This document shows positions 24,331 through 48,300 of a stretch of 64,000 nucleotides of DNA, piece after piece. Under the pieces are notes generated by a model that ran no database searches, was not told the DNA's origin, and saw only the letters and a list, made by a program, of their open reading frames with translations. Numbering within the stretch: the first letter of the stretch is position 1; each line of letters starts with the position of its first letter. Origin of the DNA: a virus; the IMG/VR virus record IMGVR_UViG_3300046777_001606, positions 1 to 64,000 of that record. One strand, given 5' to 3'. The translations under genes and the position numbers were made by a program.

Positions 24331-24339
24331 GGTGACAAA

Positions 24340-24480: not shown

Positions 24481-24504
24481 CAAAAAATTCCGGCAAAATT
24501 TTTT

Positions 24505-24702: not shown

Positions 24703-24727
24703 CAATTACTAAATAGCACGATAGAAT
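24699..24727 (+). promoter_or_regulatory. dual promoter: sigma70 with embedded late box
   Basis: TTGACA-17-TAGAAT containing CTAAATA (24709-24715). Confidence 0.7.
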
Positions 24728-24750
24728 TGAACTGAAGGTTATTCAAACTT

Positions 24751-25828: not shown

Positions 25829-26043
25829 TTCAATTAAACCCACAAATCCCAGTTGTTACCCCCAAAGGTAATGGCTGGGCATTTTTTTGTATTGACCGTT
25901 CTCAAGAACATGACTTAGAATGGGTAGTCTTTCTTAATACAACTGGAGAGTGTTGGACATTTAAGAATTCTGATATTCGTATTCAGAAAAACTACACATT
26001 GCATAGATATAATATATCAGGCATTGGTACATGTACCATCTAG
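25825..26043 (+). CDS. hypothetical protein
   Basis: ORF track (TTG start). Confidence 0.7.
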   Translation: MIQLNPQIPVVTPKGNGWAFFCIDRSQEHDLEWVVFLNTTGECWTFKNSDIRIQKNYTLHRYNISGIGTCTI

Positions 26044-26705: not shown

Positions 26706-26928
26706 CTCAGATTACATGTATCAAATGTGGGGAACAGACAAATTAGTCACAGATTATGATTTAAATAAAAAATCTAAGATGCTTCGTGAGATTAATCATG
26801 ATGATATGACTCCCAAAAAGCATGATTTTATTCATCAGAATGAAATTCATGAAAAAATTCGAAATGATGAAGATTATGATGATTGGGAATATGGAACTGA
26901 GCCCATTCCTTCATCTAAATGGCTATAA
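26683..26928 (+). CDS. hypothetical cyanophage protein
   Basis: AGGAG RBS. Confidence 0.7.
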   Translation: MGKPSDRNSDYMYQMWGTDKLVTDYDLNKKSKMLREINHDDMTPKKHDFIHQNEIHEKIRNDEDYDDWEYGTEPIPSSKWL

Positions 26929-26931
26929 ATA
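26924..26931 (+). promoter_or_regulatory. T4-type late promoter
   Basis: TATAAATA upstream of gp25. Confidence 0.8.
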
Positions 26932-26961
26932 AGATAGATTTATAATAACTTTCAACATATT

Positions 26962-27363
26962 ATGCCTCTAGAAAGGGTAAGTAAGGCATTTAAAGATATT
27001 GGGTCATCATTACAGATTAATCCAATCAATCGTGATGTGATTACGATTCAAAATGAAACTGCGATTGCCCGTTCTATACGCAATTTAGTATTTACGGAAC
27101 CAGGAGAAAGATTTTTTAATCCCAATCTTGGTTCCAGAGTAACAAAAATCATTTTTGAAAATTTTGATGAAATTTCTGCTCAACTCATAAAGACAGAAAT
27201 TGAAGAAACAATTAATAATTATGAACCAAGAGTTGATCTCATCGACGTAAGTGTAAATCCAAATTATGATAATAATGAATTTAATATAACGATAAGATAT
27301 AAAATTGTTGGAATTGATGTTTCTCCGCAACAGTTAGCATTTGCACTCCAGCCCACACGATAA
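26962..27363 (+). CDS. gp25: baseplate wedge subunit gp25
   Basis: SIRNLVFT.PGERFFNP.LGS...YEPRV motifs; position before gp6. Confidence 0.9.
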   Translation: MPLERVSKAFKDIGSSLQINPINRDVITIQNETAIARSIRNLVFTEPGERFFNPNLGSRVTKIIFENFDEISAQLIKTEIEETINNYEPRVDLIDVSVNPNYDNNEFNITIRYKIVGIDVSPQQLAFALQPTR

Positions 27364-29277: not shown

Positions 29278-29281
29278 TAAC

Positions 29282-32200: not shown

Positions 32201-35200
32201 AAAAAGATTATCGTAAATTCCTCAGGTATTAGTACTTTTAAAAATACATTATATGCGGAAAATCATGGATATTCGACTGGAGAATTAGTCAGATATTTTT
32301 CAACAGATTCTACAGTAATTGGTGGATTATCAACATCAACTTCATATTATGTGACTGTAGTTGATGATAATAATTTTAAATTATCTCAGGTTGGTTCTGG
32401 ACAAACCACAATTGATTTTTACCAAAAAACAAATCAATTTATAGATCTAACAGACACTGGAACGGGAAATCATATATTTAATTATCCACCTATAGAAGTT
32501 TCAATTAAAGGAACTATTGGAGTAACAACTTTCTCTGGACAAAACTTTGAGGCAGTAATTAATCCAGTCTTTAGGGGAGAAATAAAATCTGTATTTGTTC
32601 AGAATAAAGGTATTTCGTATGGATCCCAAAGTATTATCAATGATAACCGACAACCAGAATTTATTTTAGATTCTGGTTCGGGAGCTGAAGTTCTACCTGT
32701 TATATTAAACGGAGCAATAATCAATGTTATTATTAGATCACCAGGGTCAAATTATAATTCTCCACCAAACTTAGTTGTAACTGGTAAAGGAACTGGTGCG
32801 ATTTTAAGCCCAATACTCATTGATGGTAAATTAAAAGGAGTTTATGTTGTATATGGTGGATATGGATACGAAAATGGGTCAACTTTTATCAATGTTACTC
32901 CATCAGGAACAGGATGTGAACTGGAAGCACAAATAAAAACATGGACTATTAATAAAGTACAAAGAAATATTACAACCAATCAAATTAGTGATGATGATGG
33001 ATTTATTGATAATGGAACCAATACTGACTATGGTCTCCAATATAGTCATGCATATGCACCAAGAACTTTAAGAAGACGTATTCTTTCTTCCAAAATCCAA
33101 AATGGTCAGTATGTTTTTTCACCAGATTTACAATTATCATCTGGTATTGAAATAGCATCATCTTCACACTCGCCAATTATTGGATACGCTTATGATGGAA
33201 ATCCAATATATGGTCCATATGGATATGATACTCCAGAGGGTGGAACAATTAGATCAATGATATCTAGTTATGAGCAATCTCTAAGTATTGAAAGACCAGA
33301 TACCAATTTATATCCTGCGGGGTTCTTTATTGAAGATTTTGTTTATACTGGTTCGGGTGATTTAGATGAACATAATGGAAGATATTGCGTAACTCCAGAA
33401 TATCCAAATGGTGTTTATGCTTATTTTGCAACTATATTTAATGGATCGCCAGATGGTTCTGGAATATTTGTAAGATACAAGAGACCTGTATTCCCATATT
33501 TTATTGGAGATTCTTATAAGTCAAAGCCAATTGATTTTAACTTTGATTATAGATCAAACCAAGATTTAACAGATATTAATGCTACAGGATGGGTACGAAA
33601 TACAACACCATATGGACTTTTAAAGTCAAAAACATCTTATGAATATGTAATTAACCCAACTAAAATAAAACAGCAGAAGACATACATCCAAGGTACTTCA
33701 AGAGGATCTGTAGATAGTATCGGTATTCTTACTGCTGGAAATTTATATCAGGTTAATGATAAAATTGTATTTGATCCCACCGTTCAGTCCAATATCAAAG
33801 CATCCGCAAAGGTATCTAAAGTTAAAGGTTCTTTTGTAACAACAGTTAGTTTAGCATCGTCGGTAACTAACGCGGAATTTATTTTATATAACTCAGGAAC
33901 AAATCTCATTGGTTTTACATCTTCACCTCATGGATTTTCTAACAATGATATTGTTAATGTTGTTATAAACGACAAAGAACAAAAAACTGGAAATATTAAA
34001 ACATCAACAAATAATCTGTACTTAACTGCAGGAGTTCCTATTCCTAGTGTAACAGGAGCAGTAACTTATTTCAAAGTAACTGGTAATTTAAATTATCCAA
34101 ACATAAAAGAAAATGATATTTACATTATCAATAATAAAGAACAAGTAAAAGTTTTAGAAATAGATGCAAAATCTTCTAGAATTAAAGTTCTGAGAAATAT
34201 TACTTCAGCTGGTGGTATAACATCATATTCATCTTCTCAAAGATTGATTGAAAAAACAAGAAGACTTCAAATTGATTTGGGAATTTCAACTACTTATCAG
34301 TATAATTTAAATAAAGAAATTTATTTTAACCCCAGAGAAGCACTGGGAATCGGAACAACATCCGGAGTAGGGATTACAACTACATTGCAATTTAGTGACC
34401 CTGGTGTTGGAATTGCTAGTATTACAATACCAACAAGAGCAATCTATCTTCCAAATCATGGATTGGAGACAAATACTGAACTAATTTATTCCGCTAATAG
34501 TGGAACTCCAATTTCAATATCTACAAATGGATCTGTTTCCTATCAAATTCCAGATAACTCAATAGTTTACTGTGCAAAATTTTCCAACGATTTGATCGGA
34601 ATTTCTACAACAAAATTGGGTATTGGTAGTACGGGGTCTTTTGTTGGGTTAGGATCAGAAGTTTCATATTTGATGTATTTTATTGCTACAGGTGTTGGAA
34701 ACACTCATAGCTTTAAAACTAATTATCCTAATGTATTAAAAGGAAAAATTACAAGAAATGTTGTTACAGTATCAACAGCATCTTCGCACGGATTGAGTAT
34801 AGACGATAAAATTGATTTAACTTGTATTGCAGGAATAACCACAAACGTTAAGATTGTATATAATGATTTTAATAGAAGACTTTTAGTAAATCCAAGAAAT
34901 TTTGTTGCATCTGATATTGACGTACAAAACGATATTATCACAATTCCAAACCATCAATATACGATGGGACAAAAAATTATTCACACATCAACTTCGCCAG
35001 CTAGTGGACTGTCAAATAATAAAATTTATTATGCAATTGTAGTTGATAAAGATAGAATAAAGTTGGCAGATACTTATTATGACTCTACAAATAAAATTCC
35101 AGCAACTGTAGGAATTGCTTCAACTTCTTTTGGAACAATTGCTGCTGTTAACCCACCAATAAAAATTGCAAGAAATCAAAATATTGTATTTGATGTTTCA

Positions 35201-38200
35201 GATTCTTCGTTATCTTTCATTAAAGATAATTTACAGTATTCTGCATTTGATCTGAATTTTTACGAAGACAGTAATTTTAGAAATCCATATCTTAAGAGTC
35301 CATCATCTGCAACTTTTGATGTTATAAAATCTGGAAATATTGGTATTGACTCTACGGCAAAAGTAACTCTTAATATTAAGCAAGATACTCCACAAAATCT
35401 TTATTATCAGTTAGAAGTAGTCAATAAAAATATTAATACTCAGATTAAAAAGGACTTATTTATTGATAACGAACTTGTTAATAATAACAATACATTAATT
35501 TTAGTTGATAGTAAGTATAATGGAACTCATACTGTAAGTGGAGTAACGTCAACTGCATTCACATTTAATATCGCAGAAACTCCAGAAGTTGGAAGTTATT
35601 CTTATATACAATCTAATTTATCGTACATTACGTCATCAGAAACTGCCTTTGGATCTATTGAAAAGATAACTATTTTAGATAGTGGATTTGGTTATGAAAT
35701 CGTTCCTAAAGTTTCTGAAATTATTTCGGATTATGGATTCGGGGCTCTTTTATATCCAAAGAGCGAGACAATAGGAAATATTAAAACTTCTAAAATTGCA
35801 GATATTGGATTTGATTATTCTGCAGATCTAACAATTAGACCATCTAGTAAGTTTCCAGATCTAATTAAAATTTCTCCATTAACTTCGTTTGAATCAATCG
35901 GAGTTACTACATCTGGTAGAAGATATTCAACGGTTCCAGATTTAATTGTTTTAGATGGATATACTGGAGAACTTGTAGATGATGTTGAATTATCATATGA
36001 TATTCGTAATAAAAAAGTCGAAATTATTACAAATACAAAATCTCTTTATAATGTTGAGCCTAGAATTATACCTATTAATAATTCTAATGGTGTTGGTATC
36101 AGTTCCGTATTTTTTGATACATCTTCAAAAGATGTAATTGTAACCTTGGGTTCTAGTTTCAGCAATGCCGCAGATTTCCCATTTGATATAGGCAGTAAAG
36201 TATTTGTTGAGGGTATTAGTGTTGGTGTAAATTCAACCGGTAAAGGATATAATTCTGATGGATATCAATATCAACTTTTTACAGTTACAAATACTGATCC
36301 AAATATTGGAGGAGCGGATCCTACTGTAACATACAACCTTACCGAATTCTTAGGGGTCGGAGAATTACCCGGAAGATATGATAGGGTTAATTCTGTAGGT
36401 AGAATTATACCAGAATTCCAATTAGCTAAATTTAATTCTGTTCTTGTTGATCCAAAAGAAATTGTTTATTTTGTTGGTGAAGAAATTTCTTCCACAGACA
36501 ATACAGGAATTGTAAACTCTATTGATACTAGGACTGATTTAATTAAGGTAACTTCAGGTGGAAATTTCTATATTGGAGATTTGCTTGAAGGTAAAACATC
36601 TGGAACTTTGGGTTATATTATTGATATTAAAAAATTTGAATCGAATTATGATGTTTTCCCAACAAGTTTAGTTAGAAAAGGTTGGAAAAAAGAAACTGGA
36701 ACTTTAAATAACTCATTCCAAAGAATCCATGATAGTGATTATCATCAGTATTTTTCGTATTCAGTAAAATCTCCAATTCCATACGATACTTGGAATGACG
36801 CGGTTAGCGCATTAAATCATACATCAGGATTTAAAAAGTTTAGTGATTTGATTATTGAAACAAATAACTTTGTGGGAATTGATACCAATCAAGATAATGC
36901 AACATTTGTTAGAATTGACTTTATTTCCGAAATGGACTTGAATTGTGTGACGGATTTTGATCTAGCTACAGAAAATAGTCTTCTTGTTAAAAATAAATAT
37001 GTTTCCAATGAAATAAGACCAATATCAAGAATTTTACTTGATTATCAACAGTCAATTAATAACAGAGTTTTAACAATTGATGATATTGGACCACAATTTA
37101 ATTCTGCAGAAAGATTTAATAAGTACACTATAATTGATAGCTTTGATTTATTTACTAATAATACATATAGAGCTAGAAAATACCTTGCATTTATAAGAGA
37201 TAAGAGATTTGTAAACGATAGGGAAGTTTTATTAATTTCTACACTTCATAATTCATTTGAAGGATATGTAACACAATATGGAAGAACAGAAACATCTTAT
37301 GATTTAGGATTTTTTGATTTTCTTGTTTTTGGTACGGTTGGTAATCTTGCATTTTATCCAAGAAAGTTTGCAGTTAATGATTTTGATGTTAATTTACTAA
37401 CCTATGATCTAAGAGACTCATTTGCTGGAATAGCGAGTACAAGTGTTGGAACAATTGCTAATATTAACTCTTCAACTGTTCAAATTGCATCTGGGGTTTC
37501 CACTGCGACTACTATTGTTAGTATTGCATCATCCTATAGATCTGCAAAACTTATTGTAGAGATTTCGGGAATTAATCCAGGAATTTCAAGTACGACTCCA
37601 TATTATTTCAGCGAAATAAGTTTACTTCATGATGGAACAAATGTTTATCAAAGTGAATACGGTAATTTGAGTAATGAACCATTCACTGCATCAGTTGGAG
37701 TTGGAATTTGTACTTTTAATGCATATCTTAGCGGATCTGATATCAAACTAGATTTAATACCAAATGCCGGGTTATCTACAACTATTAACGTTAATACTCT
37801 AGCTGTTTCAATAGGAAATAGCGCATTTACTGGTGTTGGAACTTTTGTCGTAGCAACATCAGAGATTAGTTCAAAATACACTTCAATTGCATCATCAACA
37901 TCACCAATTCAAAATAGCGTAGCTTCTTATTCGTATGATGCATATAGTGGTGGATATTTCATCTTTAGTATTGAAGATACAACAAATAACTCTTATGAGA
38001 TGTGTGAAGTTGTTGTGTGTAATGATAATACAGAAGCATATATTAATGACTTTGGAAATGTCCAATCAAGTGTTGGTCTTGGAACTTTTGGAGTAGGATT
38101 TAGTACATCACTTATAAACGTTTACTTTACTCCAAATCCAAATATTAACGTTCAAGTAAGAGCATATCAAAACGCTTTAGGGAATTATGACGATCAATAC

Positions 38201-41200
38201 CCAACGGAAATTGGATTTACAAATTCATCAATTACTGCAGATTCTGGTGTTTATGTTGGAACAAAACGAGATATTCAAAGAACTTTTAATTTAACTTATA
38301 AAAATAATGATATTTTCCAAAGAGCATTTAGTGGAGAAAGTTCTACAGTTGTTGATCTTACAAAAGATCAAATAAGACTTCCAAATCATTATTTTGTTAC
38401 TGGAGAAGAAGTTACTTATGTTCCTAGAGGAAAAGGAACTGTTGCTCCAATTGGAATTGCAACCACATCAATTCCTGGAATCGGGACTACCGACAAGTTA
38501 CCTTCAACTCTTTACATTGTTAAAGTTGATGAGTTAAACGTTAAAGTTGCAACATCAGCTAGCAATGCACTTAAGACAACTCCAGAGGTTCTTGATTTAA
38601 CTTCAGTTGGAATCGGAACCTCTCATATATTCATATGCAAAAATCAAAATGCTAGGGTTTTAATATCAATTGATAATGTTATTCAATCGCCAATTGTAGC
38701 AGCTGCCATTACTGCTTCATTATCTCAAAGAATAACTCCCGTCGATAATGTTATACAGGTTGTTTCTGGAATTTCATCTTATGCATCTGGAGAATTATTA
38801 AAGATTGATGATGAAATTATGTTGATTGAATCTCTTGGATTTGGTGCAACAAACGCAATACTTGTCCAAAGACCTTGGTTAGGAACTGTTCTTGCTACAC
38901 ACGAAGCAAATTCAGTAATTACTAAAATAACTGGAGATTATAATATTACAAATAATGCTATTAACTTTGTTGATGCTCCATATGGTCTAACACCACTTTC
39001 ATCAACAACCAATATAGCTCCAGAAAGAGATTGGATTGGTATCTCCACAAGATCTTCTTTTAATGGAAGATCTTTCATGAGATCTGGATTTCCAAATGGA
39101 ACTAACACTCCATATGCATTAAATTATGTTTTTGATAACATTTCAGATCAATTTAATGGGTTCTCAACATCATTTATTCTGAAAAATAACAAACAAAATA
39201 TTGCTGGTATTCAAACTAGCAACGCAATAATTCTACTTAAAGACGTATTTCAAGGACCAAATAGGATTGGTGGAGGAACAGTTGATGTAGTTTCAAATTA
39301 TGCGTTAACAGAAAATTCTGGAATTACAACAATAATTTTTAACGCCAGCGCATCACCAACAACTTATGATATTAATAACTCTAACATTCCAGTAGGTGGT
39401 GTTATTATATCTTTGGGATCATCAAGTATTGGGTGGAATGATTATCAAGCTCCTATGGGAGCTGGTGGTACAGCAATTGTCTCTGCTGCAGGAACTATTT
39501 CTGCGGTTCGCATCAATAATGCTGGTGGTGGATACAGAACTGGAATTCAAACCTTTGTTAGGGTTGGCGTTAGAACAAATGCCGAAGCAGGAAAGATTAC
39601 TTATGTTGGATTTGCATCAATTTCGGGAGGAAGAGTTCTTGGTGTAGCAATTACTAATGGTGGTGTTGGATTTGCATCAACCAATCCACCACAAGTAGTT
39701 ATAGAAAAACCTGTTCCCTATTCTAATATTCCATTAATATATTCATCTTCCAATCCTGGTGGTGCAGCGGCTGGAGTTGGAACAGGCGCTAAGATTGATC
39801 TTTATATAAGTCAAGAGGGAGAAGCAAAAGATTGGACTCTCATCAATCTTGGATATGGTTATAAACCTGGGGAAATATTAACTGTAGGTTTAGATACCAG
39901 TGGAGTTTTTGGAATTCCTAAAGAATATCTTGGGCGTTTTGCAGATGGTGGAAATCTTCTTTCTAAGAATAGAGCTTTTGTTCAGGAAGAAGTTGTAGCA
40001 TATGTGGAATTTAACTTCCCAGGAATTTCAACAAGTCCGACTTATGATCGTGCAAAATGTAAGAGAGATGTTGGTTATATTGTTGATGCAATTACATTTG
40101 ACTTAGCTTTTGGTGGAAATTCAGAATCAATTAGCGCAGGATTAGCATATTGGAATGCGGGTGCATCTTATGTTGCAAATGAAAGAGCAGAAACTATTTT
40201 TGCATATGATTATGTTAAGTTCATTGGTCAATATATTATCAACAACCAATCTCCACCAACACTTTATCAATTCCCAATTGTAGAGAATCAGGTTTTTGAT
40301 TTTACATTAATTCAAGATTATGAAAATAATAATGCAAATTATTTTCATAGAAGAAAAGATGCAAGAAATCTTATTGTTGGAAATAGACAGGAAATTATAG
40401 ATAGATCTCTTGCTGCAGTCGCAGTTGGATATACCAATTTCTACTTCCCAGGAGAAGCACAGACTACTCCAAGATCAAGATATTATGATGCACACAGATT
40501 AATTCAACTTAATAAGCAAGAAGTTATTGATAGATCTCTTGCATCCGTAGCAATTGGATATTCTGATTTCTACTTCCCAGGAGATGCTCAAACAACAAAT
40601 AGATCAAGATACTATGATGCATATAGATTAATTCAAAATAATAGATCTGAAATTGTTGGTAGCGCATGGACAGCAGTTTCTACTGCATATCCTGGAGTTA
40701 CAACAACGGCATCAAAATGCCAACGAGATCTTGGATATTTTGTTGATGCAGTTTCTACTGACGTATTTACTGGTGGTAACAATTATGCTAGAGAATTTAC
40801 ATTGCAATATTTTAGCAATGGAAGTTTGATTCCAAATGGAGTTCTTGGCGTTCAAACCGAATCCATTTTTGCTTTCCATTCTGCTCGTGATTTCATGAGA
40901 TTGGCTGTAAGAAATCAATTAACTTACACGGATCTCGGTATTAGTTCTGGTCCTCCAACATATGGAATTGGATCAACCGTTGGAATTGCTAGCACTGCAG
41001 CTTGTTATGATGTACAGTTGAACATTATCAGTTTGACTGGTATTGTTACAACTGTTCTCGGAGCTGCCTCGACAGCAAGCTTACCTGCTAGAAATCTTGG
41101 TAATTTCAATGTTACAGTTGGAGTTGGTAGTACAGTTGGATTTGGATCAACTTCATCTCCTGGCGGTCTTAAGTGTGCCCGAGATCTTGGATATTTTGTT

Positions 41201-43783
41201 GATGCAGTTTCTACTGACGTATTTACTGGAGGTAATAATTATTCTAGAAGCTTTACACTCAAATACTTTAGCAATGGAGCTCCACTTTCGCAAGGATTGA
41301 TTGGAGAAGAAGGTCCATCAATATTTGCCTTTAGATATGCTGGCGGATACATGAAGGATGCACTGACAAATCAACTTTATGTTAAGAATCTTGGAATTAG
41401 CTCTGGTCCAGCACTATACAATGGTGCTGGCGGAAATATTGGAGTTGGTAGCACTGCATCATGTAGAGATGTACAGAGCAATGTCGATAATCTTGTAGGA
41501 CTTGTTACTTCTATTATTGGCGCTGGTTCTAGTGTAGGAATTGCATCTACAAACTTTGGATATTTTAGAGTCAATTCACAAACAAACGTCACTAATGCAA
41601 CTATTGTTGGATTTGGAACTACAGTCGGAATTGGTTCCACCAATGTTGTTGGTGGACGTAAGTGTGCCCGCGATTTGGGTTATATTGTTGATGCAGTTGC
41701 ACAGGATGTTTCTTATGGATCTAATCAGCACATAGTTTATGCAACTAAGAAATATTTTAATGGCGCTGGTGTAGCAATTACTAATGGTCTTGTTGGAGAA
41801 ACACAACAATCTATCACGGCTTTCCATGCATTGCGAGATTATGCAAAACTTGCAATAACCAATCAACTTTATAACCAAGATTATAGTATAATCGCGGATC
41901 CAGTTAGCGGTATTAATAGTTCTCTATTATCTTGTGCGAATATAAGATCTAATATTGATACTCTTGTTGGTATTTTAACCGTCGCTATTGGAAGCAGTAG
42001 TTTGTCTGCAGTTCCAGCAGAAACTCTTGGTACTACTGATTGTGCTGACGTAAGATCTGCTCTTGCATCATATGTCGGAATTATTACCACAATTATTGGT
42101 ATCGGTACTTCTGCATGTCCAAGGGTCAGCAATCCATTGTCTAATCCAGTTTCCTTACCAACAACTTTAGGTGCAGCATCATCCACTAGCCCATTCCCAG
42201 AACTTCAAATCGAAGTTACTAAAACACAAAATACAAAATTTGCTGGATGGTCAATTGGAGATCTTGAAGTTTTTGATCCTCTAGATGATCTATTTGATGG
42301 AATAACTAAAAAATTCCCATTATTCTTAGGTGGTACTAGACAAGATATCAGAACCAAAAAAGGATCTACATTGGATATTCAGTCTAACTTACTAATATTC
42401 ATTAATGATATTCTCCAAGTTCCAGGACAAGCATATACATTTACTGGAGGAAGTGTAATCACCTTCTCAGAGGCACCAAGAAGTGGAGATACTTGTAAAA
42501 TCTTGTTCTATAAAGGAACAGGAACCATTGATGTTAGACTTGTAGATATTCTGGAAACAGTTAAAAAGGGTGATGATGTTCAGTTAGTCTCAGATCAATT
42601 CTATGAAACTGAGGATGAGAGAATTGTAAGTTTTATCAATTCTTCAGATAGCATCCAAACTGTAAACTATCGTGGTCTTGGAATATCCAATGATGATACT
42701 TTCAGAAGATCTTTAACTTGGTGCAGACAAACTGAAGATAGAGTGGTTGATGGTGAAGATGTTACAAAGGATAGAATTCTATACGAACCACTAATTAATC
42801 CATCAACAAATATTATAAGAAACGTTGGTATCGGATCTACAGTCATTTTTGTAGATAGCGTTCAACCATTCTTCAATGCAAATAATGAAAATACAACGGC
42901 AGAATATAGATCGAAACTCATTATGGTTTCACAAGATGTTAATCGTAAAGCAATTGCAGAAGCAGTAGTAAGTGTTGGTGGGACTGTAGAGTCTATTACT
43001 ATGATTGAGGGTGGAGCTGGATATATAACACCACCAGAAGTAAGTATTGCAACTCCTATTGGATTCGGAACCACTGCTAGAGCATATGCTACTGCAGTAC
43101 TATCTGGAGATACTGTAGGATCAATTATCGTTTCTAATGGAGGATTTGGATATATTGCAACATTTACTCCACCAGTAGTACATATTGCACCACCAGAAAT
43201 AATAAAAGAAACAATTTCTAATGTAACTTATCTTGGTGATTTTGGTATTATTGTGGGAATCGCAACAACTTCTGTTGGAGTAGCATCAACTGGTATAATA
43301 TTCGATTTTCTAATACCAAATGGTTCTGCAATTAGAGAGATTCTTTATACTGGAGTTGGAGCAACTGATATTAGTGGGATCCAAACTGGATATTATTTCA
43401 CTGTTAAGAATTCTAATATTGGATCTCCTGGATCGGGGTTAATATCATATGATAGAAGTAATAACTTTATTTCTGTTGGATCATCATACTTAGACAATAT
43501 CTATGAAGCATGTAACGTGGTTTTAGCAACAAAAACAATTGTTGGTCTAGGAACAACTACAATTGCTAGAGTGACTGTTAGTGTTAATGACAATTCTGGT
43601 TTATCTGGTCTTTCGTCTGGTTTTTATGGGGATTTTAGTTGGGGTAGAATCTCTGCAACTGAAAGACCAGTTCCACAATCCTTTAATGCATATACATCAT
43701 ATGGAATTGGTGGTATTTCTACCTCTGCTGTTATTAGAAGAGTTAATCCTCTTAGATATATTGGTTATACAACCACAGTATAA
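29282..43783 (+). CDS. gp7: giant baseplate wedge initiator gp7-like protein (4833 aa) with YHYH-like and phycobiliprotein-like inserts
   Basis: Between gp6 and gp8; KDFYSSKGT..SFKILF and DSDYHQYFSYSVKS...LNHTSGFKKF gp7-type motifs. Confidence 0.8.
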   Translation: MRDTRVKISSIVENQLPAYVREEFPLVNDLLSQYYISLESQTLPADILQNIDQYVKLDNISSLVESTNLIDTVELYDDTITVNSNAGFPEEYGLIKIDNEIITYTGKEQNSLTDTCTISIGSSIAYLSGISTLYTGRPFVLNSLSASPTITSVGSTFVILSSIVVDSENTSGYTTTNNYTFKIDRPQFTGCVRGFSGITSYISNSAISDLVFTSTNADSHVNGSQVDNLSILLFKQFLKKVKAQASPGFENRDFDADLNENIFIKQSKDFYSSKGTDPSFKILFNVLYGEDAKIIKPRDYVIEPSNAQYRITRDIVVEPIEGSIDNIVNRTIFQDSSTISEQARASVNGVEKFLRNGKEYYIVSLDKDSIFGSFVINPKTKVVTNVSIGATHIDVDTTAGFPETGGSLLIELTDGTTFYITYESKTLTQFFGCSGIDRVIPDTSNIIFENFAYSYSDIERQNKIQFRITGVLSDLIVPQETDSFVKDDVVFAKTLGTEIEGLKANNWFFNLSTTYNVQSVSLVGLSPFIYNLTLYDNHIFRLGDAIEVYGSDGTEISGEVSSLISERAISVLVQGQLSTSSTIRYRIKRSLSRVNAVGYPELTAYTANVQNVYSDLKGNYFVASPSLPSYGSQTITIRDLVKTWSSDFYGTSVEIGQHGFYTGDAVYYTPGIGADTEAGIYFIQKNSPTSISLAKSRQNLFSGKLVTLFGVASAENKIELLEFAGQKLEPQKLIRKFSDPEYVTGDDYKTAAGMIGMLVNGVEILNYKSRDVIYFGPLEKIYPLSPGRGYDVINPPNLRINDVTGYGATAFPAVTGSLERIDILDSGFDYTDIPKISITGGNGNSAIAECNMISFEHDVPFYPTSGAAPLQVDLSNNTVAFTTYHKFRSGEEIIYLTGGDVAVGGLSTNASYYVSLVNAYAVKFHKSFEDANAGINTISLTSYGTGSHRVKSKFKKKKIGSISVKDSGFGYENKKIIVNSSGISTFKNTLYAENHGYSTGELVRYFSTDSTVIGGLSTSTSYYVTVVDDNNFKLSQVGSGQTTIDFYQKTNQFIDLTDTGTGNHIFNYPPIEVSIKGTIGVTTFSGQNFEAVINPVFRGEIKSVFVQNKGISYGSQSIINDNRQPEFILDSGSGAEVLPVILNGAIINVIIRSPGSNYNSPPNLVVTGKGTGAILSPILIDGKLKGVYVVYGGYGYENGSTFINVTPSGTGCELEAQIKTWTINKVQRNITTNQISDDDGFIDNGTNTDYGLQYSHAYAPRTLRRRILSSKIQNGQYVFSPDLQLSSGIEIASSSHSPIIGYAYDGNPIYGPYGYDTPEGGTIRSMISSYEQSLSIERPDTNLYPAGFFIEDFVYTGSGDLDEHNGRYCVTPEYPNGVYAYFATIFNGSPDGSGIFVRYKRPVFPYFIGDSYKSKPIDFNFDYRSNQDLTDINATGWVRNTTPYGLLKSKTSYEYVINPTKIKQQKTYIQGTSRGSVDSIGILTAGNLYQVNDKIVFDPTVQSNIKASAKVSKVKGSFVTTVSLASSVTNAEFILYNSGTNLIGFTSSPHGFSNNDIVNVVINDKEQKTGNIKTSTNNLYLTAGVPIPSVTGAVTYFKVTGNLNYPNIKENDIYIINNKEQVKVLEIDAKSSRIKVLRNITSAGGITSYSSSQRLIEKTRRLQIDLGISTTYQYNLNKEIYFNPREALGIGTTSGVGITTTLQFSDPGVGIASITIPTRAIYLPNHGLETNTELIYSANSGTPISISTNGSVSYQIPDNSIVYCAKFSNDLIGISTTKLGIGSTGSFVGLGSEVSYLMYFIATGVGNTHSFKTNYPNVLKGKITRNVVTVSTASSHGLSIDDKIDLTCIAGITTNVKIVYNDFNRRLLVNPRNFVASDIDVQNDIITIPNHQYTMGQKIIHTSTSPASGLSNNKIYYAIVVDKDRIKLADTYYDSTNKIPATVGIASTSFGTIAAVNPPIKIARNQNIVFDVSDSSLSFIKDNLQYSAFDLNFYEDSNFRNPYLKSPSSATFDVIKSGNIGIDSTAKVTLNIKQDTPQNLYYQLEVVNKNINTQIKKDLFIDNELVNNNNTLILVDSKYNGTHTVSGVTSTAFTFNIAETPEVGSYSYIQSNLSYITSSETAFGSIEKITILDSGFGYEIVPKVSEIISDYGFGALLYPKSETIGNIKTSKIADIGFDYSADLTIRPSSKFPDLIKISPLTSFESIGVTTSGRRYSTVPDLIVLDGYTGELVDDVELSYDIRNKKVEIITNTKSLYNVEPRIIPINNSNGVGISSVFFDTSSKDVIVTLGSSFSNAADFPFDIGSKVFVEGISVGVNSTGKGYNSDGYQYQLFTVTNTDPNIGGADPTVTYNLTEFLGVGELPGRYDRVNSVGRIIPEFQLAKFNSVLVDPKEIVYFVGEEISSTDNTGIVNSIDTRTDLIKVTSGGNFYIGDLLEGKTSGTLGYIIDIKKFESNYDVFPTSLVRKGWKKETGTLNNSFQRIHDSDYHQYFSYSVKSPIPYDTWNDAVSALNHTSGFKKFSDLIIETNNFVGIDTNQDNATFVRIDFISEMDLNCVTDFDLATENSLLVKNKYVSNEIRPISRILLDYQQSINNRVLTIDDIGPQFNSAERFNKYTIIDSFDLFTNNTYRARKYLAFIRDKRFVNDREVLLISTLHNSFEGYVTQYGRTETSYDLGFFDFLVFGTVGNLAFYPRKFAVNDFDVNLLTYDLRDSFAGIASTSVGTIANINSSTVQIASGVSTATTIVSIASSYRSAKLIVEISGINPGISSTTPYYFSEISLLHDGTNVYQSEYGNLSNEPFTASVGVGICTFNAYLSGSDIKLDLIPNAGLSTTINVNTLAVSIGNSAFTGVGTFVVATSEISSKYTSIASSTSPIQNSVASYSYDAYSGGYFIFSIEDTTNNSYEMCEVVVCNDNTEAYINDFGNVQSSVGLGTFGVGFSTSLINVYFTPNPNINVQVRAYQNALGNYDDQYPTEIGFTNSSITADSGVYVGTKRDIQRTFNLTYKNNDIFQRAFSGESSTVVDLTKDQIRLPNHYFVTGEEVTYVPRGKGTVAPIGIATTSIPGIGTTDKLPSTLYIVKVDELNVKVATSASNALKTTPEVLDLTSVGIGTSHIFICKNQNARVLISIDNVIQSPIVAAAITASLSQRITPVDNVIQVVSGISSYASGELLKIDDEIMLIESLGFGATNAILVQRPWLGTVLATHEANSVITKITGDYNITNNAINFVDAPYGLTPLSSTTNIAPERDWIGISTRSSFNGRSFMRSGFPNGTNTPYALNYVFDNISDQFNGFSTSFILKNNKQNIAGIQTSNAIILLKDVFQGPNRIGGGTVDVVSNYALTENSGITTIIFNASASPTTYDINNSNIPVGGVIISLGSSSIGWNDYQAPMGAGGTAIVSAAGTISAVRINNAGGGYRTGIQTFVRVGVRTNAEAGKITYVGFASISGGRVLGVAITNGGVGFASTNPPQVVIEKPVPYSNIPLIYSSSNPGGAAAGVGTGAKIDLYISQEGEAKDWTLINLGYGYKPGEILTVGLDTSGVFGIPKEYLGRFADGGNLLSKNRAFVQEEVVAYVEFNFPGISTSPTYDRAKCKRDVGYIVDAITFDLAFGGNSESISAGLAYWNAGASYVANERAETIFAYDYVKFIGQYIINNQSPPTLYQFPIVENQVFDFTLIQDYENNNANYFHRRKDARNLIVGNRQEIIDRSLAAVAVGYTNFYFPGEAQTTPRSRYYDAHRLIQLNKQEVIDRSLASVAIGYSDFYFPGDAQTTNRSRYYDAYRLIQNNRSEIVGSAWTAVSTAYPGVTTTASKCQRDLGYFVDAVSTDVFTGGNNYAREFTLQYFSNGSLIPNGVLGVQTESIFAFHSARDFMRLAVRNQLTYTDLGISSGPPTYGIGSTVGIASTAACYDVQLNIISLTGIVTTVLGAASTASLPARNLGNFNVTVGVGSTVGFGSTSSPGGLKCARDLGYFVDAVSTDVFTGGNNYSRSFTLKYFSNGAPLSQGLIGEEGPSIFAFRYAGGYMKDALTNQLYVKNLGISSGPALYNGAGGNIGVGSTASCRDVQSNVDNLVGLVTSIIGAGSSVGIASTNFGYFRVNSQTNVTNATIVGFGTTVGIGSTNVVGGRKCARDLGYIVDAVAQDVSYGSNQHIVYATKKYFNGAGVAITNGLVGETQQSITAFHALRDYAKLAITNQLYNQDYSIIADPVSGINSSLLSCANIRSNIDTLVGILTVAIGSSSLSAVPAETLGTTDCADVRSALASYVGIITTIIGIGTSACPRVSNPLSNPVSLPTTLGAASSTSPFPELQIEVTKTQNTKFAGWSIGDLEVFDPLDDLFDGITKKFPLFLGGTRQDIRTKKGSTLDIQSNLLIFINDILQVPGQAYTFTGGSVITFSEAPRSGDTCKILFYKGTGTIDVRLVDILETVKKGDDVQLVSDQFYETEDERIVSFINSSDSIQTVNYRGLGISNDDTFRRSLTWCRQTEDRVVDGEDVTKDRILYEPLINPSTNIIRNVGIGSTVIFVDSVQPFFNANNENTTAEYRSKLIMVSQDVNRKAIAEAVVSVGGTVESITMIEGGAGYITPPEVSIATPIGFGTTARAYATAVLSGDTVGSIIVSNGGFGYIATFTPPVVHIAPPEIIKETISNVTYLGDFGIIVGIATTSVGVASTGIIFDFLIPNGSAIREILYTGVGATDISGIQTGYYFTVKNSNIGSPGSGLISYDRSNNFISVGSSYLDNIYEACNVVLATKTIVGLGTTTIARVTVSVNDNSGLSGLSSGFYGDFSWGRISATERPVPQSFNAYTSYGIGGISTSAVIRRVNPLRYIGYTTTV
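40349..40735 (+). repeat. three tandem 129-bp (43-aa) repeats within gp7
   Basis: R..DA..LI..N..E units start at 40349, 40478, 40607. Confidence 0.85.
40724..41229 (+). repeat. identical 50-bp direct repeat pair (40724-40773 and 41180-41229)
   Basis: cgagatcttggatattttgttgatgcagtttctactgacgtatttactgg occurs twice. Confidence 0.9.
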
Positions 43784-43803: not shown

Positions 43804-45357
43804 ATGGCTGCAATTATAACTGATCAACTTAGAATATTTAATGCATCGAACTTTGTTTCTGTTGCAAATTCTACCGACACTTCATTATATGCCTTTGTTG
43901 GTTTACCAAACCCAATTGATTATAAATCTGATTGGGACTTTAGTCCGCCAGTTCCAAAAGATTCCTTCGAGCAAGAAGATGATTATTGGGACACTATAAT
44001 TGCATTGAAAAGAATTACTAGCGGTGATATTCGTCAGGTTATTAGAAAAATAACTTGGACCTCTGGAGATACTTATGATATGTATCGCCATGATGTTAGT
44101 AGGACTAATACTTCTAAACCTTCTGGAAGTACAAGCTTGTATGGGGCAAATTATTATGTTCTTACTGAAGATTATAGGGTTTATATTTGTATACAAAATG
44201 GAACTGATCCAGAAAATCCAGAAGGCAGACCATCTCTTGACGAGCCGACTTTTACGGACTTAGAACCAAAATCGGCAGGTACAAGTAATGATGGATATAT
44301 TTGGAAATATCTTTTTACTGTAAAACCTGCCGATATTATTAAATACGACTCTGTTGAATTTATTCCTGTTCCATTAAACTGGGAAACAAACACTGAAAAT
44401 GCAGAAGTAAGAGATAACGCTGCAACTAGTGGTCAAATCAAAATCGCAACTATTACAAATAGAGGTGTTGCCCTCGGAGCTCCAAACCAAACATATACCA
44501 ATGTTCCAATTAAAGGAGATGGTACTGGAGCAGAATGCACTATCGTTGTAAATAATGATTCAAAAGTAGATTCAATTACCATTTCCAATGGTGGTTCTGG
44601 ATATACTCATGGTAGAATTGATTTAGTTGCTGGAGGAGTTCCAACAGGATCTACAACTCCAACTTTTGATGTTATTATTCCACCAAGAGGTGGTCATGGA
44701 GCTAACATTTATAGGGAACTTGGTGCTTATTATGTTTCGTTATATGCAAGAATTGAAAATGATAATCAAAATCCAGATTTTATAACAGGAAACCAGGTTG
44801 CTAGAATTGGTATCATTGAAAACCCATTAGCGTATTCTTCAGAAAGTGTGCTTTCTATTGAAAAGGCGAGTAATGTTTATGCTCTGAAATTGATCGGGGC
44901 AGGATATAGTTCCGCAATATTTCTTCCAGATGCAAGAATTACTCAAACAATTGGTGTTGGATCTACTGCTGTTGGAAGAGTTGTTTCTTATGACGAAAAC
45001 ACTGGAGTATTGAAATACTGGCAAGATAAAAGTCTTGTTGGATTTAATTCTGATGGATCACAAAAACAATCGCCTCCATACGGATTAAATATAAATCGTT
45101 TTACTGCAGAGCCAGATGTTGGGGGATCCGTAAATGTTCTTGGTGGAAATATAACTTTGGGTATTGATACTTCTTATACTGGTATATCTACAGTAATAAA
45201 TAATAGAACATACTACCTTGGTCAGTCATTTACAAGAGGAGTTTCTAATCCAGAAGTTAAAAAATACTCTGGAAATATAATTTACGTGGATAATAGACCT
45301 GCCATTACTAGGTCTGCAAATCAAAAAGAAGATATTAAAGTTATTTTGCAGTTCTAA
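43804..45357 (+). CDS. gp8: baseplate wedge subunit gp8
   Basis: MAAIITDQLRI...YDMYRHD...DGYIWKYLF...EDIKVILQF. Confidence 0.9.
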   Translation: MAAIITDQLRIFNASNFVSVANSTDTSLYAFVGLPNPIDYKSDWDFSPPVPKDSFEQEDDYWDTIIALKRITSGDIRQVIRKITWTSGDTYDMYRHDVSRTNTSKPSGSTSLYGANYYVLTEDYRVYICIQNGTDPENPEGRPSLDEPTFTDLEPKSAGTSNDGYIWKYLFTVKPADIIKYDSVEFIPVPLNWETNTENAEVRDNAATSGQIKIATITNRGVALGAPNQTYTNVPIKGDGTGAECTIVVNNDSKVDSITISNGGSGYTHGRIDLVAGGVPTGSTTPTFDVIIPPRGGHGANIYRELGAYYVSLYARIENDNQNPDFITGNQVARIGIIENPLAYSSESVLSIEKASNVYALKLIGAGYSSAIFLPDARITQTIGVGSTAVGRVVSYDENTGVLKYWQDKSLVGFNSDGSQKQSPPYGLNINRFTAEPDVGGSVNVLGGNITLGIDTSYTGISTVINNRTYYLGQSFTRGVSNPEVKKYSGNIIYVDNRPAITRSANQKEDIKVILQF

Positions 45358-45363
45358 AGAATC

Positions 45364-48300
45364 ATGCCCCAAAAAACAAACCTCAATGTTTCTCCATATT
45401 TTGATGATTTTGATCCGAGAGATAATTACTATAAAGTCCTTTTTAAGCCAGGATATCCTGTTCAGGCTAGAGAATTAACAACGTTACAATCAATTCTTCT
45501 CAACCAATCAGAATCCTTTGGTAAGCATATATTTAAGGAAGGATCTGTAGTAATTCCTGGACAAGTAAGATACGACAATCCAATATACGCAGTTGAAATT
45601 GAATCAGAATTTAATGGAATTCCTATTTCATTATATTTTGATGAGATGCTCAACAAAACTGTTATTGGGGCAGATAGTGGAGTTAAAGCAACTATTTTTT
45701 ATTTACTAAAGAATACCGAATCTGAAAGAGGAAATTATACAATTTATGTAAAATATATTTCTGCAGGTGGGACAGACTTTACTAATAAAAAGTTCTTTGA
45801 TAATGAAAATTTAATCTTAGATACTGATTTAACTTATAGTGGGATTACAATTCCAAGTGGACAAGAATTTGTAAAAACAATCCAAACAAATGCTACCTCC
45901 GAAGGATCTTCTGCAACTGTAGCAGATGGTGTATATTTTATCAGAGGTATTTTCGCAAACGTCAATACTCAAACTATTCTTTTAGATCAGTACGGAACTT
46001 CACCTTCATATAGAGTTGGATTTACTGTTGTTGAGTCCATAGTTACTTCAGATGATGATCCAGATTTATATGATAATGCACAAGGATTTTCAAATTTCTC
46101 TGCTCCTGGAGCAGATAGATTTAAATTAGACTTAATTTTCTCTAAAAAAGAAATCACAGATACTGATACAGATTCTTTTGTTGAAATATTAAGAGTAACA
46201 AACGGAGTACCTGAGTATTTAAATTTAAACCCACAATATAATATTCTCAGAGAAGAAATTGCAAGAAGAGTTTATGATCAATCTGGTGATTTCTTTGTAA
46301 AACCATTTACTCTTTATTTAAGAGACAGTTTAAATAATAGAACAACAACAGATGGTCTTTATTATGATGATCAGATTACGATCAATGGTAATAAACCATC
46401 TGACAATTTAATGATTTATGAAATTGGTCCAGGAAAAGCATACGTTAATGGATTTGATATTGAAACCAGATCAAAAAGATTTTTAGACGTAGAAAAACCA
46501 AGAACAACAAATACAATACAAGCAAATAATGTAACATATAATGCAGGGTTACTTTTCCCTGTAAATAATGGATATGGAGCTCCTCCCATAGGATTGGGAA
46601 CAGATGTAACATTAAGTTTGATGAATTCTAGAAAGAATTCTGATCCATCTGTTGCGGCAGGAACTACTATCGGATTAGCTCGTATATATGATTTTGTTCC
46701 CGAATCAAATTATGAAAATGCATCTAGTAGATTATCATTGAGATTATTTGATGTTCAAACTTACACTGTGATTGGTCTAACAACATCTATAACTCAATCA
46801 ACTCCAGCTGTTATAAAAGGTTCCAGAAGTAAAGCAACTGGATATTTGAGATCCAGCGTTACTGGTTCAAGTTCTTTAACTCTATATGACGTATCTGGAT
46901 CATTTATAGAAAATGAAGCGATTTCTATAAATGGCATTTCAAATGGAAGATTAATTAAAACAGTAACTGATTATGATATCTCAGATGTAAGATCTGTATA
47001 CGGAAAAGTTGGAACAACTACTTTTACTGCAGATACTATCTTAGAAAATAAGCAACTAATAGCTCCTGCAGGATCGACATTTCAAATTACCGCAAGATTT
47101 AGTGGTATAAGCACGGTATCCTGTGGATTAAACACCACTTTTATTAATAGTGTAAAAGTAAATGATATTATCACATATTCAAGTCCAAATCCAACTTCAG
47201 TACCAATTTATAATAGAGTAGCAAGTATTGGTGCTGGCGGTACATTTTTTACAATTGCTGGTCTCACCACCGTATCTGGTATTTGTGATGGAACTTTACC
47301 AGCATCTTCGGTTACAGTTTCAAATATTACAAAACTTTATGGTTCTGTTTATAATCAATCAGATGCCTCTTTATTAACTTTACTCCCACAATCAGTAATT
47401 TCTAATATTTCTTTAGAAAATAATATTTTACGCCAAAGAATTGACTTCAAAACGGTAACTATTACTGCATCTTCACTAACTATTCAAATTACTGAACCAG
47501 ATTTATATTTCGAGTCATTTGATGAAGATAGATTTGTTATTAGTTATAGTGATGGAACTATTGAACCATTAAGAAGAGATAAGTATAGTTTAGATGTCAC
47601 AGGAAAAATACTAACCTTCAATGGGTTATCTAAAACAACAGGAACAGCAAACGTAATTGCAACGGTTAAGAATTTAAAACCTAACTCCAAAAATAAAAAG
47701 TTCAATAAAGTTTCAACATTAGTCATTGATAGATCAAGATTAACATCGTCCGGTATTGGATCAACAACATTAAACGATGGATTAACCTATAGTCAAGTCT
47801 ATGGTACTAGAGTACAAGATGAAGATATTTGTCTTAACGTTCCCGATGTTGTAAGAGTTTTAGCTGTATATGAATCGGATTCCACATCAGATCCATCAAT
47901 TCCAAAATTAGAATTATCTTCATTTACAGGTCAAACAAACTCTACAGCAGATTTTAACTTAGGTGAAGAACTTTTAGGAAAAACTAGTGGATCTGTTGCT
48001 TTAGTTGTTAATAAAGTTAATGCAACTAATATAGAAGTTGTGTATTTAAATGCATTTGAATTTGTTGAGGGTGAAGAAATAGTTTCGAAAGAAACTGCTG
48101 TAACTGCAAAAATAACAACGAAATATACAGTAAGTAAAAATATAACACAAAATTATAATTTCGATAACGGGCAAAGAGCTACATTATATGATTATGGTAG
48201 AATTATTAGAAAAACTAATGTTGCTGCACCAACTAAAAAGATAGAAATAATATTCCAATACTATAGTATTGATAGCAATGATACTGGCGAATTTATAACT

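What the first reader, a model, noticed from the sequence alone, without database searches (positions are those of the whole stretch)
39935..42100. Phycobiliprotein-like (bilin-binding globin) domains built into the virion baseplate protein gp7
Seen: four KCxRD(V/L)GY motifs (AKCKRDVGYIVDAITFDLAFGGN, SKCQRDLGY, LKCARDLGY, RKCARDLGY; Cys codons at 40058, 40718, 41174, 41663). There are also four helices of type R..DA..L..N...IV..A..AV...YP and four later helices starting with Cys (e.g. TTDCADVRSALASYVGII; Cys at 41003, 41462, 41933, 42041). Known: phycocyanin/phycoerythrin alpha chains read LEAA..L..N....V..A..AV..KFP...KAKCARDIGYYLR..TY.L..GG around bilin-binding Cys84. Beta chains carry a second bilin on Cys155 in GDCSAL.SE.ASYFD, the site served by CpcT/CpeT lyases. 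T4-like cyanophages often encode ho1, pebS/pcyA and cpeT with no established substrate, and adsorption of some cyanomyoviruses is light-dependent. Inference: the baseplate may carry phage-made apo-biliprotein domains that are chromophorylated, giving a pigmented or light-sensing virion. Alternatively they could mimic phycobiliproteins.
Basis: partly seen in the sequence, partly recalled or inferred. Interest (0 to 1): 0.92.

Follow-up and report, generated by a model that had tools for sequence, protein, structure and literature searches.

The report
Phycobiliprotein-like domains nested in cyanophage baseplate
A giant baseplate protein of a marine cyanobacterial virus carries four nested domains related to the host's light-harvesting pigment proteins; they keep both pigment-attachment cysteines and travel with the phage pigment lyase CpeT, so a pigmented, perhaps light-sensing, virus particle is now testable.

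Summary

The structural inference holds. A profile of the ~180-aa unit hits only phycobiliproteins (PBPs) in the PDB (best E 4.7e-4). hhalign against CpcA/B gives 95% probability (P 4e-8; shuffled controls P at least 0.27). An AlphaFold model (pLDDT 85.5) has only PBPs as top fold matches (Z 15-16, rmsd 1.9-2.0 Å over 130-138 residues).

The 751-aa block is a clean insertion in gp7, absent from the closest relatives' gp7. Its pieces are arranged like balanced brackets, that is, nested domains.

C-x-R-D is kept in 93% of 704 copies. The second Cys maps to beta-Cys153/165, the site served by T-type lyases.

Among 29 complete cyanomyovirus genomes, 19 have the domain and CpeT, 9 have neither and 1 has the domain only. 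cpeT lies next to a domain-bearing fibre gene in several lineages.

Bilin attachment is not shown. A one-Cys subfamily occurs in uncultured jumbo phages without bilin genes.

This scan noted the same kind of domain before on other DNA (e1-5773434). I found no publication.

The parts
29282..43783 (+). gp7-like giant baseplate wedge protein (4833 aa)
   Evidence: phrog_2885 'baseplate wedge subunit', E 0. Same gene order as P-HM2 gp7-gp8-VrlC. The neighbours are gp25-, gp6- and gp8-like.
39929..42181 (+). 751-aa insertion cassette holding the four PBP-like domains
   Evidence: In SynMITS9220M01 and S-SM2 gp7, the residues before and after this block align to directly adjoining DNA (65995/65993), and those ORFs are about 760 aa shorter.
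39911..40339 (+). Unit A, helices h1-h4 (CxRD Cys codon at 40058); its last helix is the orphan h5 at 42023-42154
   Evidence: HMM positions 16-130, 113.7 bits. The pairing with the last h5 is inferred from the bracket-like architecture.
40292..40441 (+). Orphan h1 helix pair, inferred N-terminal part of unit D
   Evidence: HMM positions 11-47. Counts of orphan h1 and of h2-h5 units match across loci.
40430..40567 (+). Orphan h1 helix pair, inferred N-terminal part of unit C
   Evidence: HMM positions 1-44, E 8.8e-10.
40559..41122 (+). Unit B, complete PBP-like domain (Cys codons 40718 and 41003)
   Evidence: HMM positions 1-178, 223 bits. Pfam PF00502 20-21 bits. AF2 pLDDT 85.5. PBP fold matches with Z up to 16.
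41129..41584 (+). Unit C, helices h2-h5 (Cys codons 41174 and 41462)
   Evidence: HMM positions 52-179, 137 bits.
41579..42040 (+). Unit D, helices h2-h5 (Cys codons 41663 and 41933)
   Evidence: HMM positions 51-177, 126 bits.
42023..42154 (+). Orphan h5 helix headed by Cys (codon 42041), inferred to close unit A
   Evidence: HMM positions 140-173. Loci that lack unit A mostly also lack this helix.
26962..29277 (+). gp25-like and gp6-like baseplate wedge genes upstream
   Evidence: phrog_261 (E 1.7e-51) and phrog_219 (E 1.3e-188).
43804..53007 (+). gp8-like baseplate wedge gene and a 2547-aa VrlC-like gene downstream
   Evidence: phrog_438 (E 1.6e-161) and phrog_358 (E 0). Same order in P-HM2.

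Best explanation
Shown: nt 39929-42181 is a 751-aa cassette inserted into the gp7 baseplate wedge protein. It encodes four PBP-type globin domains that lack the X-Y dimerisation hairpin.

Inferred from architecture: three of the domains are split and wrapped around the next one, in the order A{D{C{B}}}.

Shown: each domain keeps the two bilin-attachment cysteines of a PBP beta subunit. One is the Cys82/84-type in K-C-x-R-D. The other is a Cys at the N-cap of the last helix, which maps to beta-Cys153 of phycocyanin and beta-165 of C-phycoerythrin.

Inferred mechanism: late in infection these domains fold in the host cytoplasm, where PEB or PCB is present. Phage CpeT, a T-type lyase specific for the beta-153/155 site, attaches bilin to the second Cys. 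The CxRD Cys is served by a host S/U-type lyase or attaches bilin by itself, as ApcE and the BBAGs do. The baseplate and fibres would then carry covalently bound bilins.

More speculative: the pigment makes fibre or baseplate deployment respond to light, which would explain light-dependent adsorption.
For: Fold and homology:
- Pfam PF00502 scores 21.2 bits against a cut-off of 22.2.
- The profile of the domain, searched against PDB sequences, gives 45 hits and all are PBPs, best E 4.7e-4.
- hhalign gives 94.9% probability, P 4.3e-8. Twenty column-shuffled controls give P 0.27-0.93 and the reversed control P 0.6.
- The AF2 model was made without templates, from phage sequences only (pLDDT 85.5).
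- The Foldseek top 50 are all PBP beta subunits.
- VIA gives Z 15.3-16.1, rmsd 1.9-2.0 Å over 131-138 residues. Other globins fall off in the order RsbR and photocobilin (10-11), sensor globins (~10), haemoglobins (6-7).

Motifs:
- Among 704 copies, Cys is kept in 97%, Arg in 95% and Asp in 99%, at about 15% identity to PBPs overall.
- CXRD is the bilin-binding motif of PBPs and of BBAG-1/3 (PMC10151467).
- The second Cys maps to beta-153/165 by end-anchored arithmetic on two independent structural alignments. Its local motif in isolates, G/D-D/N-C-A/S-D/N-V, resembles the PBP motif G-D-C-S-A-L.

Link to CpeT:
- Of 29 complete cyanomyovirus genomes, 19 have domain and CpeT, 9 have neither, and 1 has the domain only.
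- cpeT lies 1-3 kb upstream of a domain-bearing giant fibre gene in Syn1, S-H9-2, S-PM2 and the IMG/VR contigs G008 and G013.
- T-type lyases are specific for Cys-beta155 (PMC2327270).
- The role of phage cpeT is unresolved (PMC3037559).

Light:
- P-HM1/2 and S-PM2 need light to adsorb, and this does not depend on host photosynthesis (PMC6628666). They carry the domain.
- P-SSM2 adsorbs in the dark and has neither the domain nor cpeT.
Against: - No chromophore has been shown, and I know of no report of coloured cyanophage particles.
- The one-Cys subfamily (85 of 145 representative proteins, 552 of 704 copies) is in jumbo-phage contigs. Their capsid protein is 70-78% identical to those of phages of Sinorhizobium, Vibrio, Pseudomonas and enterobacteria. 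These contigs show no psbA, heme oxygenase, bilin reductase or CpeT.
- Phage B23 and the complete contig G007 have two-Cys domains but no detectable CpeT.
- In many isolates the Arg of CxRD is replaced (C-x-D-D, C-x-T-D), and P-SSM4 has lost the first Cys.
- The co-occurrence is not corrected for shared ancestry.
- The window's own contig shows no cpeT, though it is only 53% complete.
- The residue-level mapping of the second Cys is arithmetic on alignment ends, not a printed alignment.
Confidence: 0.45

Rival explanations
1. Pigment-free structural or adhesive module. An ancient PBP/BBAG-type globin domain was taken over as a compact helical knob that can be nested and multiplied to decorate or lengthen baseplate and fibre proteins. 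The conserved Cys, Arg, Asp, Asp and Tyr hold the fold together or bind a host surface ligand. The link to cpeT reflects shared ancestry.
For: The cassette moves between different virion proteins: gp7, 'short tail fiber', 'tail fiber-like' and 'structural protein'. Copy number runs from 1 to 32 per protein. The domain is abundant in jumbo phages without bilin genes. B23 and G007 have the domain without CpeT. The Arg of CxRD is often lost in isolates.
Against: Three bilin-contacting residues (Lys, Arg, Asp) and the attachment Cys are the residues best kept, at about 15% overall identity. A lone, 97%-conserved Cys is unusual for a purely structural extracellular domain. Domain and cpeT are gained or lost together in several lineages: the S-SM2 group against ACG-2014f and S-CAM7, and also S-N03, BUCT-ZZ01 and P-SSM2.
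Confidence: 0.38
2. The conserved Cys serves a different chemistry. It might form disulfides between subunits or domains after release into oxic seawater, or bind another cofactor such as heme, another tetrapyrrole or a metal in the old globin pocket.
For: The fold is a globin, and many globin relatives bind heme. The virion proteins end up outside the cell. S-SCSM2R's homologue is annotated 'involved in heme utilization or adhesion', an automatic name only.
Against: 433 of 704 copies have exactly one Cys, and the second Cys is absent from a whole subfamily, so a disulfide within the domain cannot be the general role. No conserved His for heme ligation appears among the conserved columns. The conserved motif is the bilin motif, not a heme motif (PMC10151467).
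Confidence: 0.12
3. The likeness to phycobiliproteins is chance or convergence of a generic helical bundle.
For: All single-sequence scores are below threshold: Pfam 21.2 bits against 22.2, and phmmer E 0.17. Helical bundles often give middling Z scores (note).
Against: All 45 profile hits and all top fold hits belong to one family. hhalign gives P 4e-8 against at least 0.27 for shuffled controls. Z of 15-16 stands well above the next globin classes. The motif register is the same in the sequence and structure alignments.
Confidence: 0.03

Closest known systems
Phycobiliprotein beta subunits (CpcB, CpeB; Pfam PF00502)
   Same: Globin-type fold from helix A/B to helix H (Z 15-16, rmsd about 2 Å). 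K-C-x-R-D at the Cys82/84 position. A second Cys at the beta-153/165 position. G-G after helix E. Found together with a T-type lyase gene.
   Different: About 15% identity, and below the Pfam cut-off. No X-Y hairpin, so no alpha/beta dimer of the classical kind. Embedded, nested and repeated inside giant virion proteins. No evidence of trimers, linkers or energy transfer. Chromophore not shown.
ApcE (core-membrane linker) PBP domain
   Same: A PBP domain built into a large multidomain polypeptide (fold match 4xxi, Z 13.7). It is interrupted by an inserted loop, between helices B and E by my recollection, the same place where the phage domains are split. It attaches bilin autocatalytically (PMC2327270).
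   Different: ApcE has one PBP domain with a loop insertion, not whole domains nested in each other. It is part of the phycobilisome, not of a virion.
BBAGs, bilin biosynthesis-associated globins (Rockwell et al. 2023, PMC10151467)
   Same: PBP relatives found outside the phycobilisome, partly in heterotrophic bacteria. Some have CXRD. They bind bilins without lyases and their function is unknown.
   Different: BBAGs are small stand-alone proteins encoded next to heme oxygenase and bilin reductase genes. No such genes lie near the phage domains. I could not test the relationship by sequence, because no BBAG sequence was on hand.
T4 gp7 baseplate wedge protein
   Same: Position in the gp25-gp6-gp7-gp8 module, and the PHROG family.
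   Different: Four to five times longer. It carries a YHYH domain and the 751-aa PBP-like cassette, which even the nearest cyanophage gp7 orthologues lack.

Membership tests
Phycobiliprotein (PF00502) | Score above Pfam's gathering cut-off (22.2 bits) | tested here: not met
   21.2 bits for the whole protein and 20.0 for unit B alone. Units A, C and D alone give no hit.
Phycobiliprotein (PF00502) | Homology detectable by profile methods | tested here: met
   Profile against the PDB: only PBPs, best E 4.7e-4. hhalign 94.9% probability, P 4.3e-8, with controls at P 0.27 or more.
Phycobiliprotein (PF00502) | PBP-type globin fold (helices A, B, E, F, G, H) | tested here: met
   AF2 pLDDT 85.5, pTM 0.84. 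Foldseek top 50 all PBPs. VIA Z 15.3-16.1, rmsd 1.9-2.0 Å over 131-138 residues.
Phycobiliprotein (PF00502) | N-terminal X-Y helical hairpin that forms the alpha/beta monomer | tested here: not met
   The Pfam match starts at profile position 29. The best structural alignments start at chain residues 29-33. Some looser alignments place the preceding orphan helices there.
Phycobiliprotein (PF00502) | Cys82/84 in C-x-R-D on helix E | tested here: met
   Aligned in register by HMMER and hhalign. C-x-R-D is present in 658 of 704 copies.
Phycobiliprotein (PF00502) | Covalently bound bilin | not testable with these tools
   Needs spectroscopy or mass spectrometry of virions or of recombinant protein.
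Substrate of a T-type (CpcT/CpeT) lyase | Cys at the beta-153/155 (165 in C-PE) position, before helix H | tested here: met
   In the large model residue 365 corresponds to beta-153 when model 384 is matched to chain 172. In the unit model residue 149 corresponds to beta-165 when model 168 is matched to chain 184. This is arithmetic on alignment ends and assumes an ungapped last helix. The local motif resembles G-D-C-S-A-L.
Substrate of a T-type (CpcT/CpeT) lyase | Lyase gene present in the same genome | tested here: inconclusive
   None found on the window's contig, which is 53% complete. Among 29 complete relatives: 19 with both, 9 with neither, 1 with the domain only.
BBAG (bilin biosynthesis-associated globin) | Encoded next to heme oxygenase or a ferredoxin-dependent bilin reductase | tested here: not met
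   No PF01126 or PF05996 match on G000 or on the jumbo contigs G001-G005. All of these are incomplete genomes.
T4-type gp7 baseplate wedge | Family match and position between gp6 and gp8 | tested here: met
   phrog_2885, E 0. gp25-, gp6- and gp8-like neighbours. P-HM2 gp7 has the same gene order.

The most novel reading that the evidence does not exclude
Cyanomyovirus particles are pigmented. The nested PBP-like domains in baseplate and fibre proteins are loaded with bilin in the infected cell, with phage CpeT serving the beta-153-like Cys. They act as a virion-borne photoreceptor that gates adsorption by light. This would give phage cpeT its missing substrate and would explain light-dependent adsorption.
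Probability: 0.25. Interest if true: 0.97.

Novelty: new variant of a known kind. Interest (0 to 1): 0.88.

Why it matters
Two old puzzles of cyanophage biology become directly testable.

First, it is unknown why most T4-like cyanophages carry a lone T-type bilin lyase gene, cpeT, with no known substrate; Sullivan et al. 2010 (PMC3037559) call its role 'unresolved'.

Second, it is unknown why some cyanomyoviruses adsorb only in the light, independently of host photosynthesis (PMC6628666).

A PBP-type domain with both attachment cysteines sits in the adsorption apparatus, co-occurs with cpeT and is often encoded next to it. That makes it a concrete candidate substrate and sensor.

Even without pigment, this is a large unnamed family of PBP relatives: 555 representative proteins, with up to 32 copies each, in virion proteins. 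It shows an unusual Russian-doll way of nesting domains. It also bears on where phycobiliproteins came from.

Tried and rejected
- Disulfide within the domain: rejected as a general role. 433 of 704 copies have a single Cys, and a whole subfamily lacks the second Cys.
- Chance similarity: rejected by the shuffled and reversed hhalign controls.
- tblastn with S-PM2 CpeT found only 112 records against 389 with the domain. That seemed to break the cpeT link, but it was a sensitivity artefact. Pfam-based searches and Sullivan's gene table recover CpeT in Syn9, Syn19, Syn33, S-SM1 and others.
- ho1, pebS and pcyA as partners of the domain: not supported. P-SSM2 has ho1 and pebS but no domain.
- ESM Atlas look-up gave no usable hit.
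- The AF2 model of the whole 748-aa block (pLDDT 66, pTM 0.62) could not confirm the nesting.
- Literature searches for PBP-like domains in cyanophage virions found nothing.
- Gasper et al. 2017, on the phage CpeT protein, is not held in the library.
Full report
**What is in the window.** The region lies in one ORF, 29282..43783 (+), of 4833 aa. The ORF matches PHROG 2885, 'baseplate wedge subunit', with E 0, and carries a YHYH domain at aa 1290-1384. Its neighbours are gp25-like, gp6-like, gp8-like and VrlC-like genes. This is the order found around gp7 of Prochlorococcus phage P-HM2. The contig is an IMG/VR fragment of 107.8 kb, estimated 53% complete. Its capsid protein is 89% identical to that of Synechococcus phage SynMITS9220M01 and 85% to that of S-SM2.

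**The observation.** Composition predicts 0.0002 such motifs, and no other frame of the window has one. An HMM built from 106 homologous copies has 181 positions. It describes five helical elements: h1 (a helix pair), h2 (carrying K-C-x-R-D-x-G-Y), h3, h4 and h5. In the window it finds these pieces, in order:
- h1-h4
- h1
- h1
- a full unit, h1-h5
- h2-h5
- h2-h5
- h5

**The units are phycobiliprotein (PBP) relatives.** Three independent lines of evidence agree.
- *Sequence.* Pfam PF00502 scores 21.2 bits against a cut-off of 22.2. phmmer of unit B against PDB sequences lists seven C-phycocyanin alpha chains first, at E 0.17-0.6. A profile of 38 complete copies (alignment A1) raises this to E 4.7e-4, and all 45 hits up to E 10 are PBPs or proteins derived from them.
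- *Profile against profile.* I took CpcA and CpcB sequences from cyanobacterial genomes. hhalign of A1 against them gives 94.9% probability, P 4.3e-8. Twenty column-shuffled controls give P 0.27-0.93 and a reversed control gives 0.6.
- *Structure.* AlphaFold2 was run without templates, on phage sequences only. It gives pLDDT 85.5 and pTM 0.84. The first 50 Foldseek matches are all PBP beta subunits. An all-against-representatives search with VIA-align ranks eight PBP-family chains first; the best is Z 15.3, rmsd 2.0 Å over 138 residues. RsbR and photocobilin globins follow at Z 10-11, sensor globins at about 10 and haemoglobins at 6-7. This order mirrors the globin phylogeny in Rockwell et al. 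2023 (PMC10151467).

The matches start at PBP residue 29-33, so the X-Y hairpin is missing.

**The attachment sites.** I examined 704 near-complete copies from 151 representative proteins.
- Cys is kept in 97%, Arg in 95% and Asp in 99% of copies. A later Asp and a Tyr are each kept in 99%.
- According to PMC10151467, CXRD is the chromophore motif of PBPs and of BBAG-1/3: the Cys makes the thioether, and the Arg and Asp bond to the bilin.
- 433 copies have that single Cys only, which excludes a disulfide within the domain as the general role.
- The second Cys splits the family cleanly, with no mixed proteins. Sixty proteins (152 copies) have it and 85 proteins (552 copies) never do.
- In the structural alignments the last aligned pairs are model 384 with chain 172 for C-phycocyanin beta, and model 168 with chain 184 for C-phycoerythrin beta. 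Counting back along the last helix places the second Cys on beta-153 and beta-165. Beta-153 is a Cys in the CpcB sequences I fetched, within G-D-C-S-A-L. Beta-165 is the corresponding site of C-phycoerythrin by my recollection.
- In isolates the phage motif reads G/D-D/N-C-A/S-D/N-V.
- T-type lyases serve exactly this site (PMC2327270).
- All four units of the window have both cysteines.

**Nesting and insertion.** Across IMG/VR loci the pieces are balanced like brackets. There are n orphan h1 pieces, then a full unit, then n pieces of h2-h5, for n = 2, 3 and 4 (L008, L005, L006). An h1-h4 piece is closed later by an orphan h5. The window's order therefore reads A{D{C{B}}}. Domains C and D are split in the h1-h2 loop, and domain A between h4 and h5. 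This is inferred from architecture; the whole-block model could not be inspected.

The block is a cassette. In the gp7 of SynMITS9220M01 and S-SM2, the residues before nt 39929 and after nt 42181 align to directly adjoining DNA. Those ORFs are about 760 aa shorter.

**Distribution.**
- tblastn of the block against 50,697 phage genomes finds 389 records, and all are cyanophages. A divergent query finds 158 records, again all cyanophages.
- In 1.84 billion representative proteins there are 555 family members, with up to 32 copies each.
- The one-Cys copies that I could place are on contigs of jumbo-phage size. One contig, G001, is 270 kb and estimated 76% complete. Its capsid protein is 70-78% identical to those of phages of Sinorhizobium, Vibrio, Pseudomonas, Erwinia and Cronobacter. 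These contigs have no psbA, bilin reductase, heme oxygenase or CpeT. Their hosts are unknown.

**The link to cpeT.**
- In the 16 genomes of Sullivan et al. 2010, 13 have the domain and 3 do not: P-SSM2, S-SM2 and S-SSM7.
- CpeT is absent from exactly those 3. P-SSM7 and S-ShM2 pass the cut-off only when their pieces are summed. Sullivan's Table 3 agrees, except for Syn1, where the record annotates cpeT.
- In 11 further genomes, sampled along the capsid-similarity ranking, 5 have both and 6 have neither. The weak ACG-2014f protein is confirmed by its match to S-CAM7 CpeT.
- Of the two best tblastn hits, S-SCSM2R has CpeT and B23 has none. The complete uncultured genome G007, 243 kb, also has none.
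- The total for isolates is 19 with both, 9 with neither, 1 with the domain only and 0 with CpeT only. Fisher's exact test gives about 1e-6, not corrected for ancestry.
- The genomes with neither fall in several lineages: the S-SM2 group next to ACG-2014f and S-CAM7, which have both, and also S-N03, BUCT-ZZ01 and P-SSM2.
- cpeT lies 1-3 kb upstream of a giant fibre gene that begins with these domains, usually with a 2OG-Fe(II) oxygenase gene in between. This holds in Syn1, S-H9-2, S-PM2 and the contigs G008 and G013.
- ho1 and pebS do not follow the domain, since P-SSM2 has them.

**Light.** P-HM1 and P-HM2 do not adsorb in the dark, whereas P-SSM2 does. For S-PM2 the dependence on light does not need host photosynthesis, and 'light-sensitive ... 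phage tail fibers' have been suggested (PMC6628666). P-HM1, P-HM2 and S-PM2 have the domain and P-SSM2 does not. That is three or four phages, so it is a lead only.

**Verdict.** The fold, the homology, the motif conservation, the cassette nature and the association with cpeT are shown. The nesting is strongly implied. Bilin attachment and any role in light sensing are inferred. They are weakened by the one-Cys subfamily in jumbo phages without bilin genes, by B23 and G007, and by the frequent loss of the Arg in isolates. I found no publication that describes these domains.

Noticed in passing
window 33149-33433 (gp7 aa 1290-1384): A YHYH domain (PF14240, E 7e-24) lies inside the baseplate protein. 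Its role there is unknown.
   Followed up: no
L006, L005, L008, L011 (IMG/VR loci): Up to four levels of domain-in-domain nesting, with equal numbers of orphan h1 pieces and h2-h5 pieces. This is an unusually regular 'Russian doll' architecture.
   Followed up: partly
L087 (Syn1 19938-33236); L088 (S-H9-2); S-PM2 154417-160883; IMG/VR contigs G008 and G013: Conserved gene order: cpeT, then tRNAs, then a 2OG-Fe(II) oxygenase, then a giant fibre gene that begins with PBP-like domains. The oxygenase might act on the same protein.
   Followed up: partly
L070-L081; G001 (270 kb): Uncultured phages of jumbo size have a T4-type capsid protein close to those of Phosso, PA5oct and GAP32. They carry giant proteins with many one-Cys PBP-like domains. 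No isolate of that group in the phage collection shows the domain by tblastn.
   Followed up: partly
MN695335.1 (phage B23); G007 (IMG/VR contig behind L008, 243 kb, terminal repeats): Complete genomes with two-Cys domains but no detectable CpeT. These are the only exceptions found to the co-occurrence.
   Followed up: partly
L225 (P-SSM4 70400-75800): All three copies in P-SSM4 have lost the first (CxRD) Cys, while one copy keeps the second Cys. In Syn9, Syn19, Syn33, S-SM1 and S-SSM5 the motif reads C-x-D-D or C-x-T-D.
   Followed up: no
window 42116 (Cys 4279): One more Cys (A-C-P-R-V) lies just after the last helix of the cassette and still inside the insertion. No homologue was assigned to it.
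   Followed up: no
L254 (S-SCSM2R 91411-101622): The homologous giant protein is annotated 'large exoprotein involved in heme utilization or adhesion'. This is probably an automatic name.
   Followed up: no
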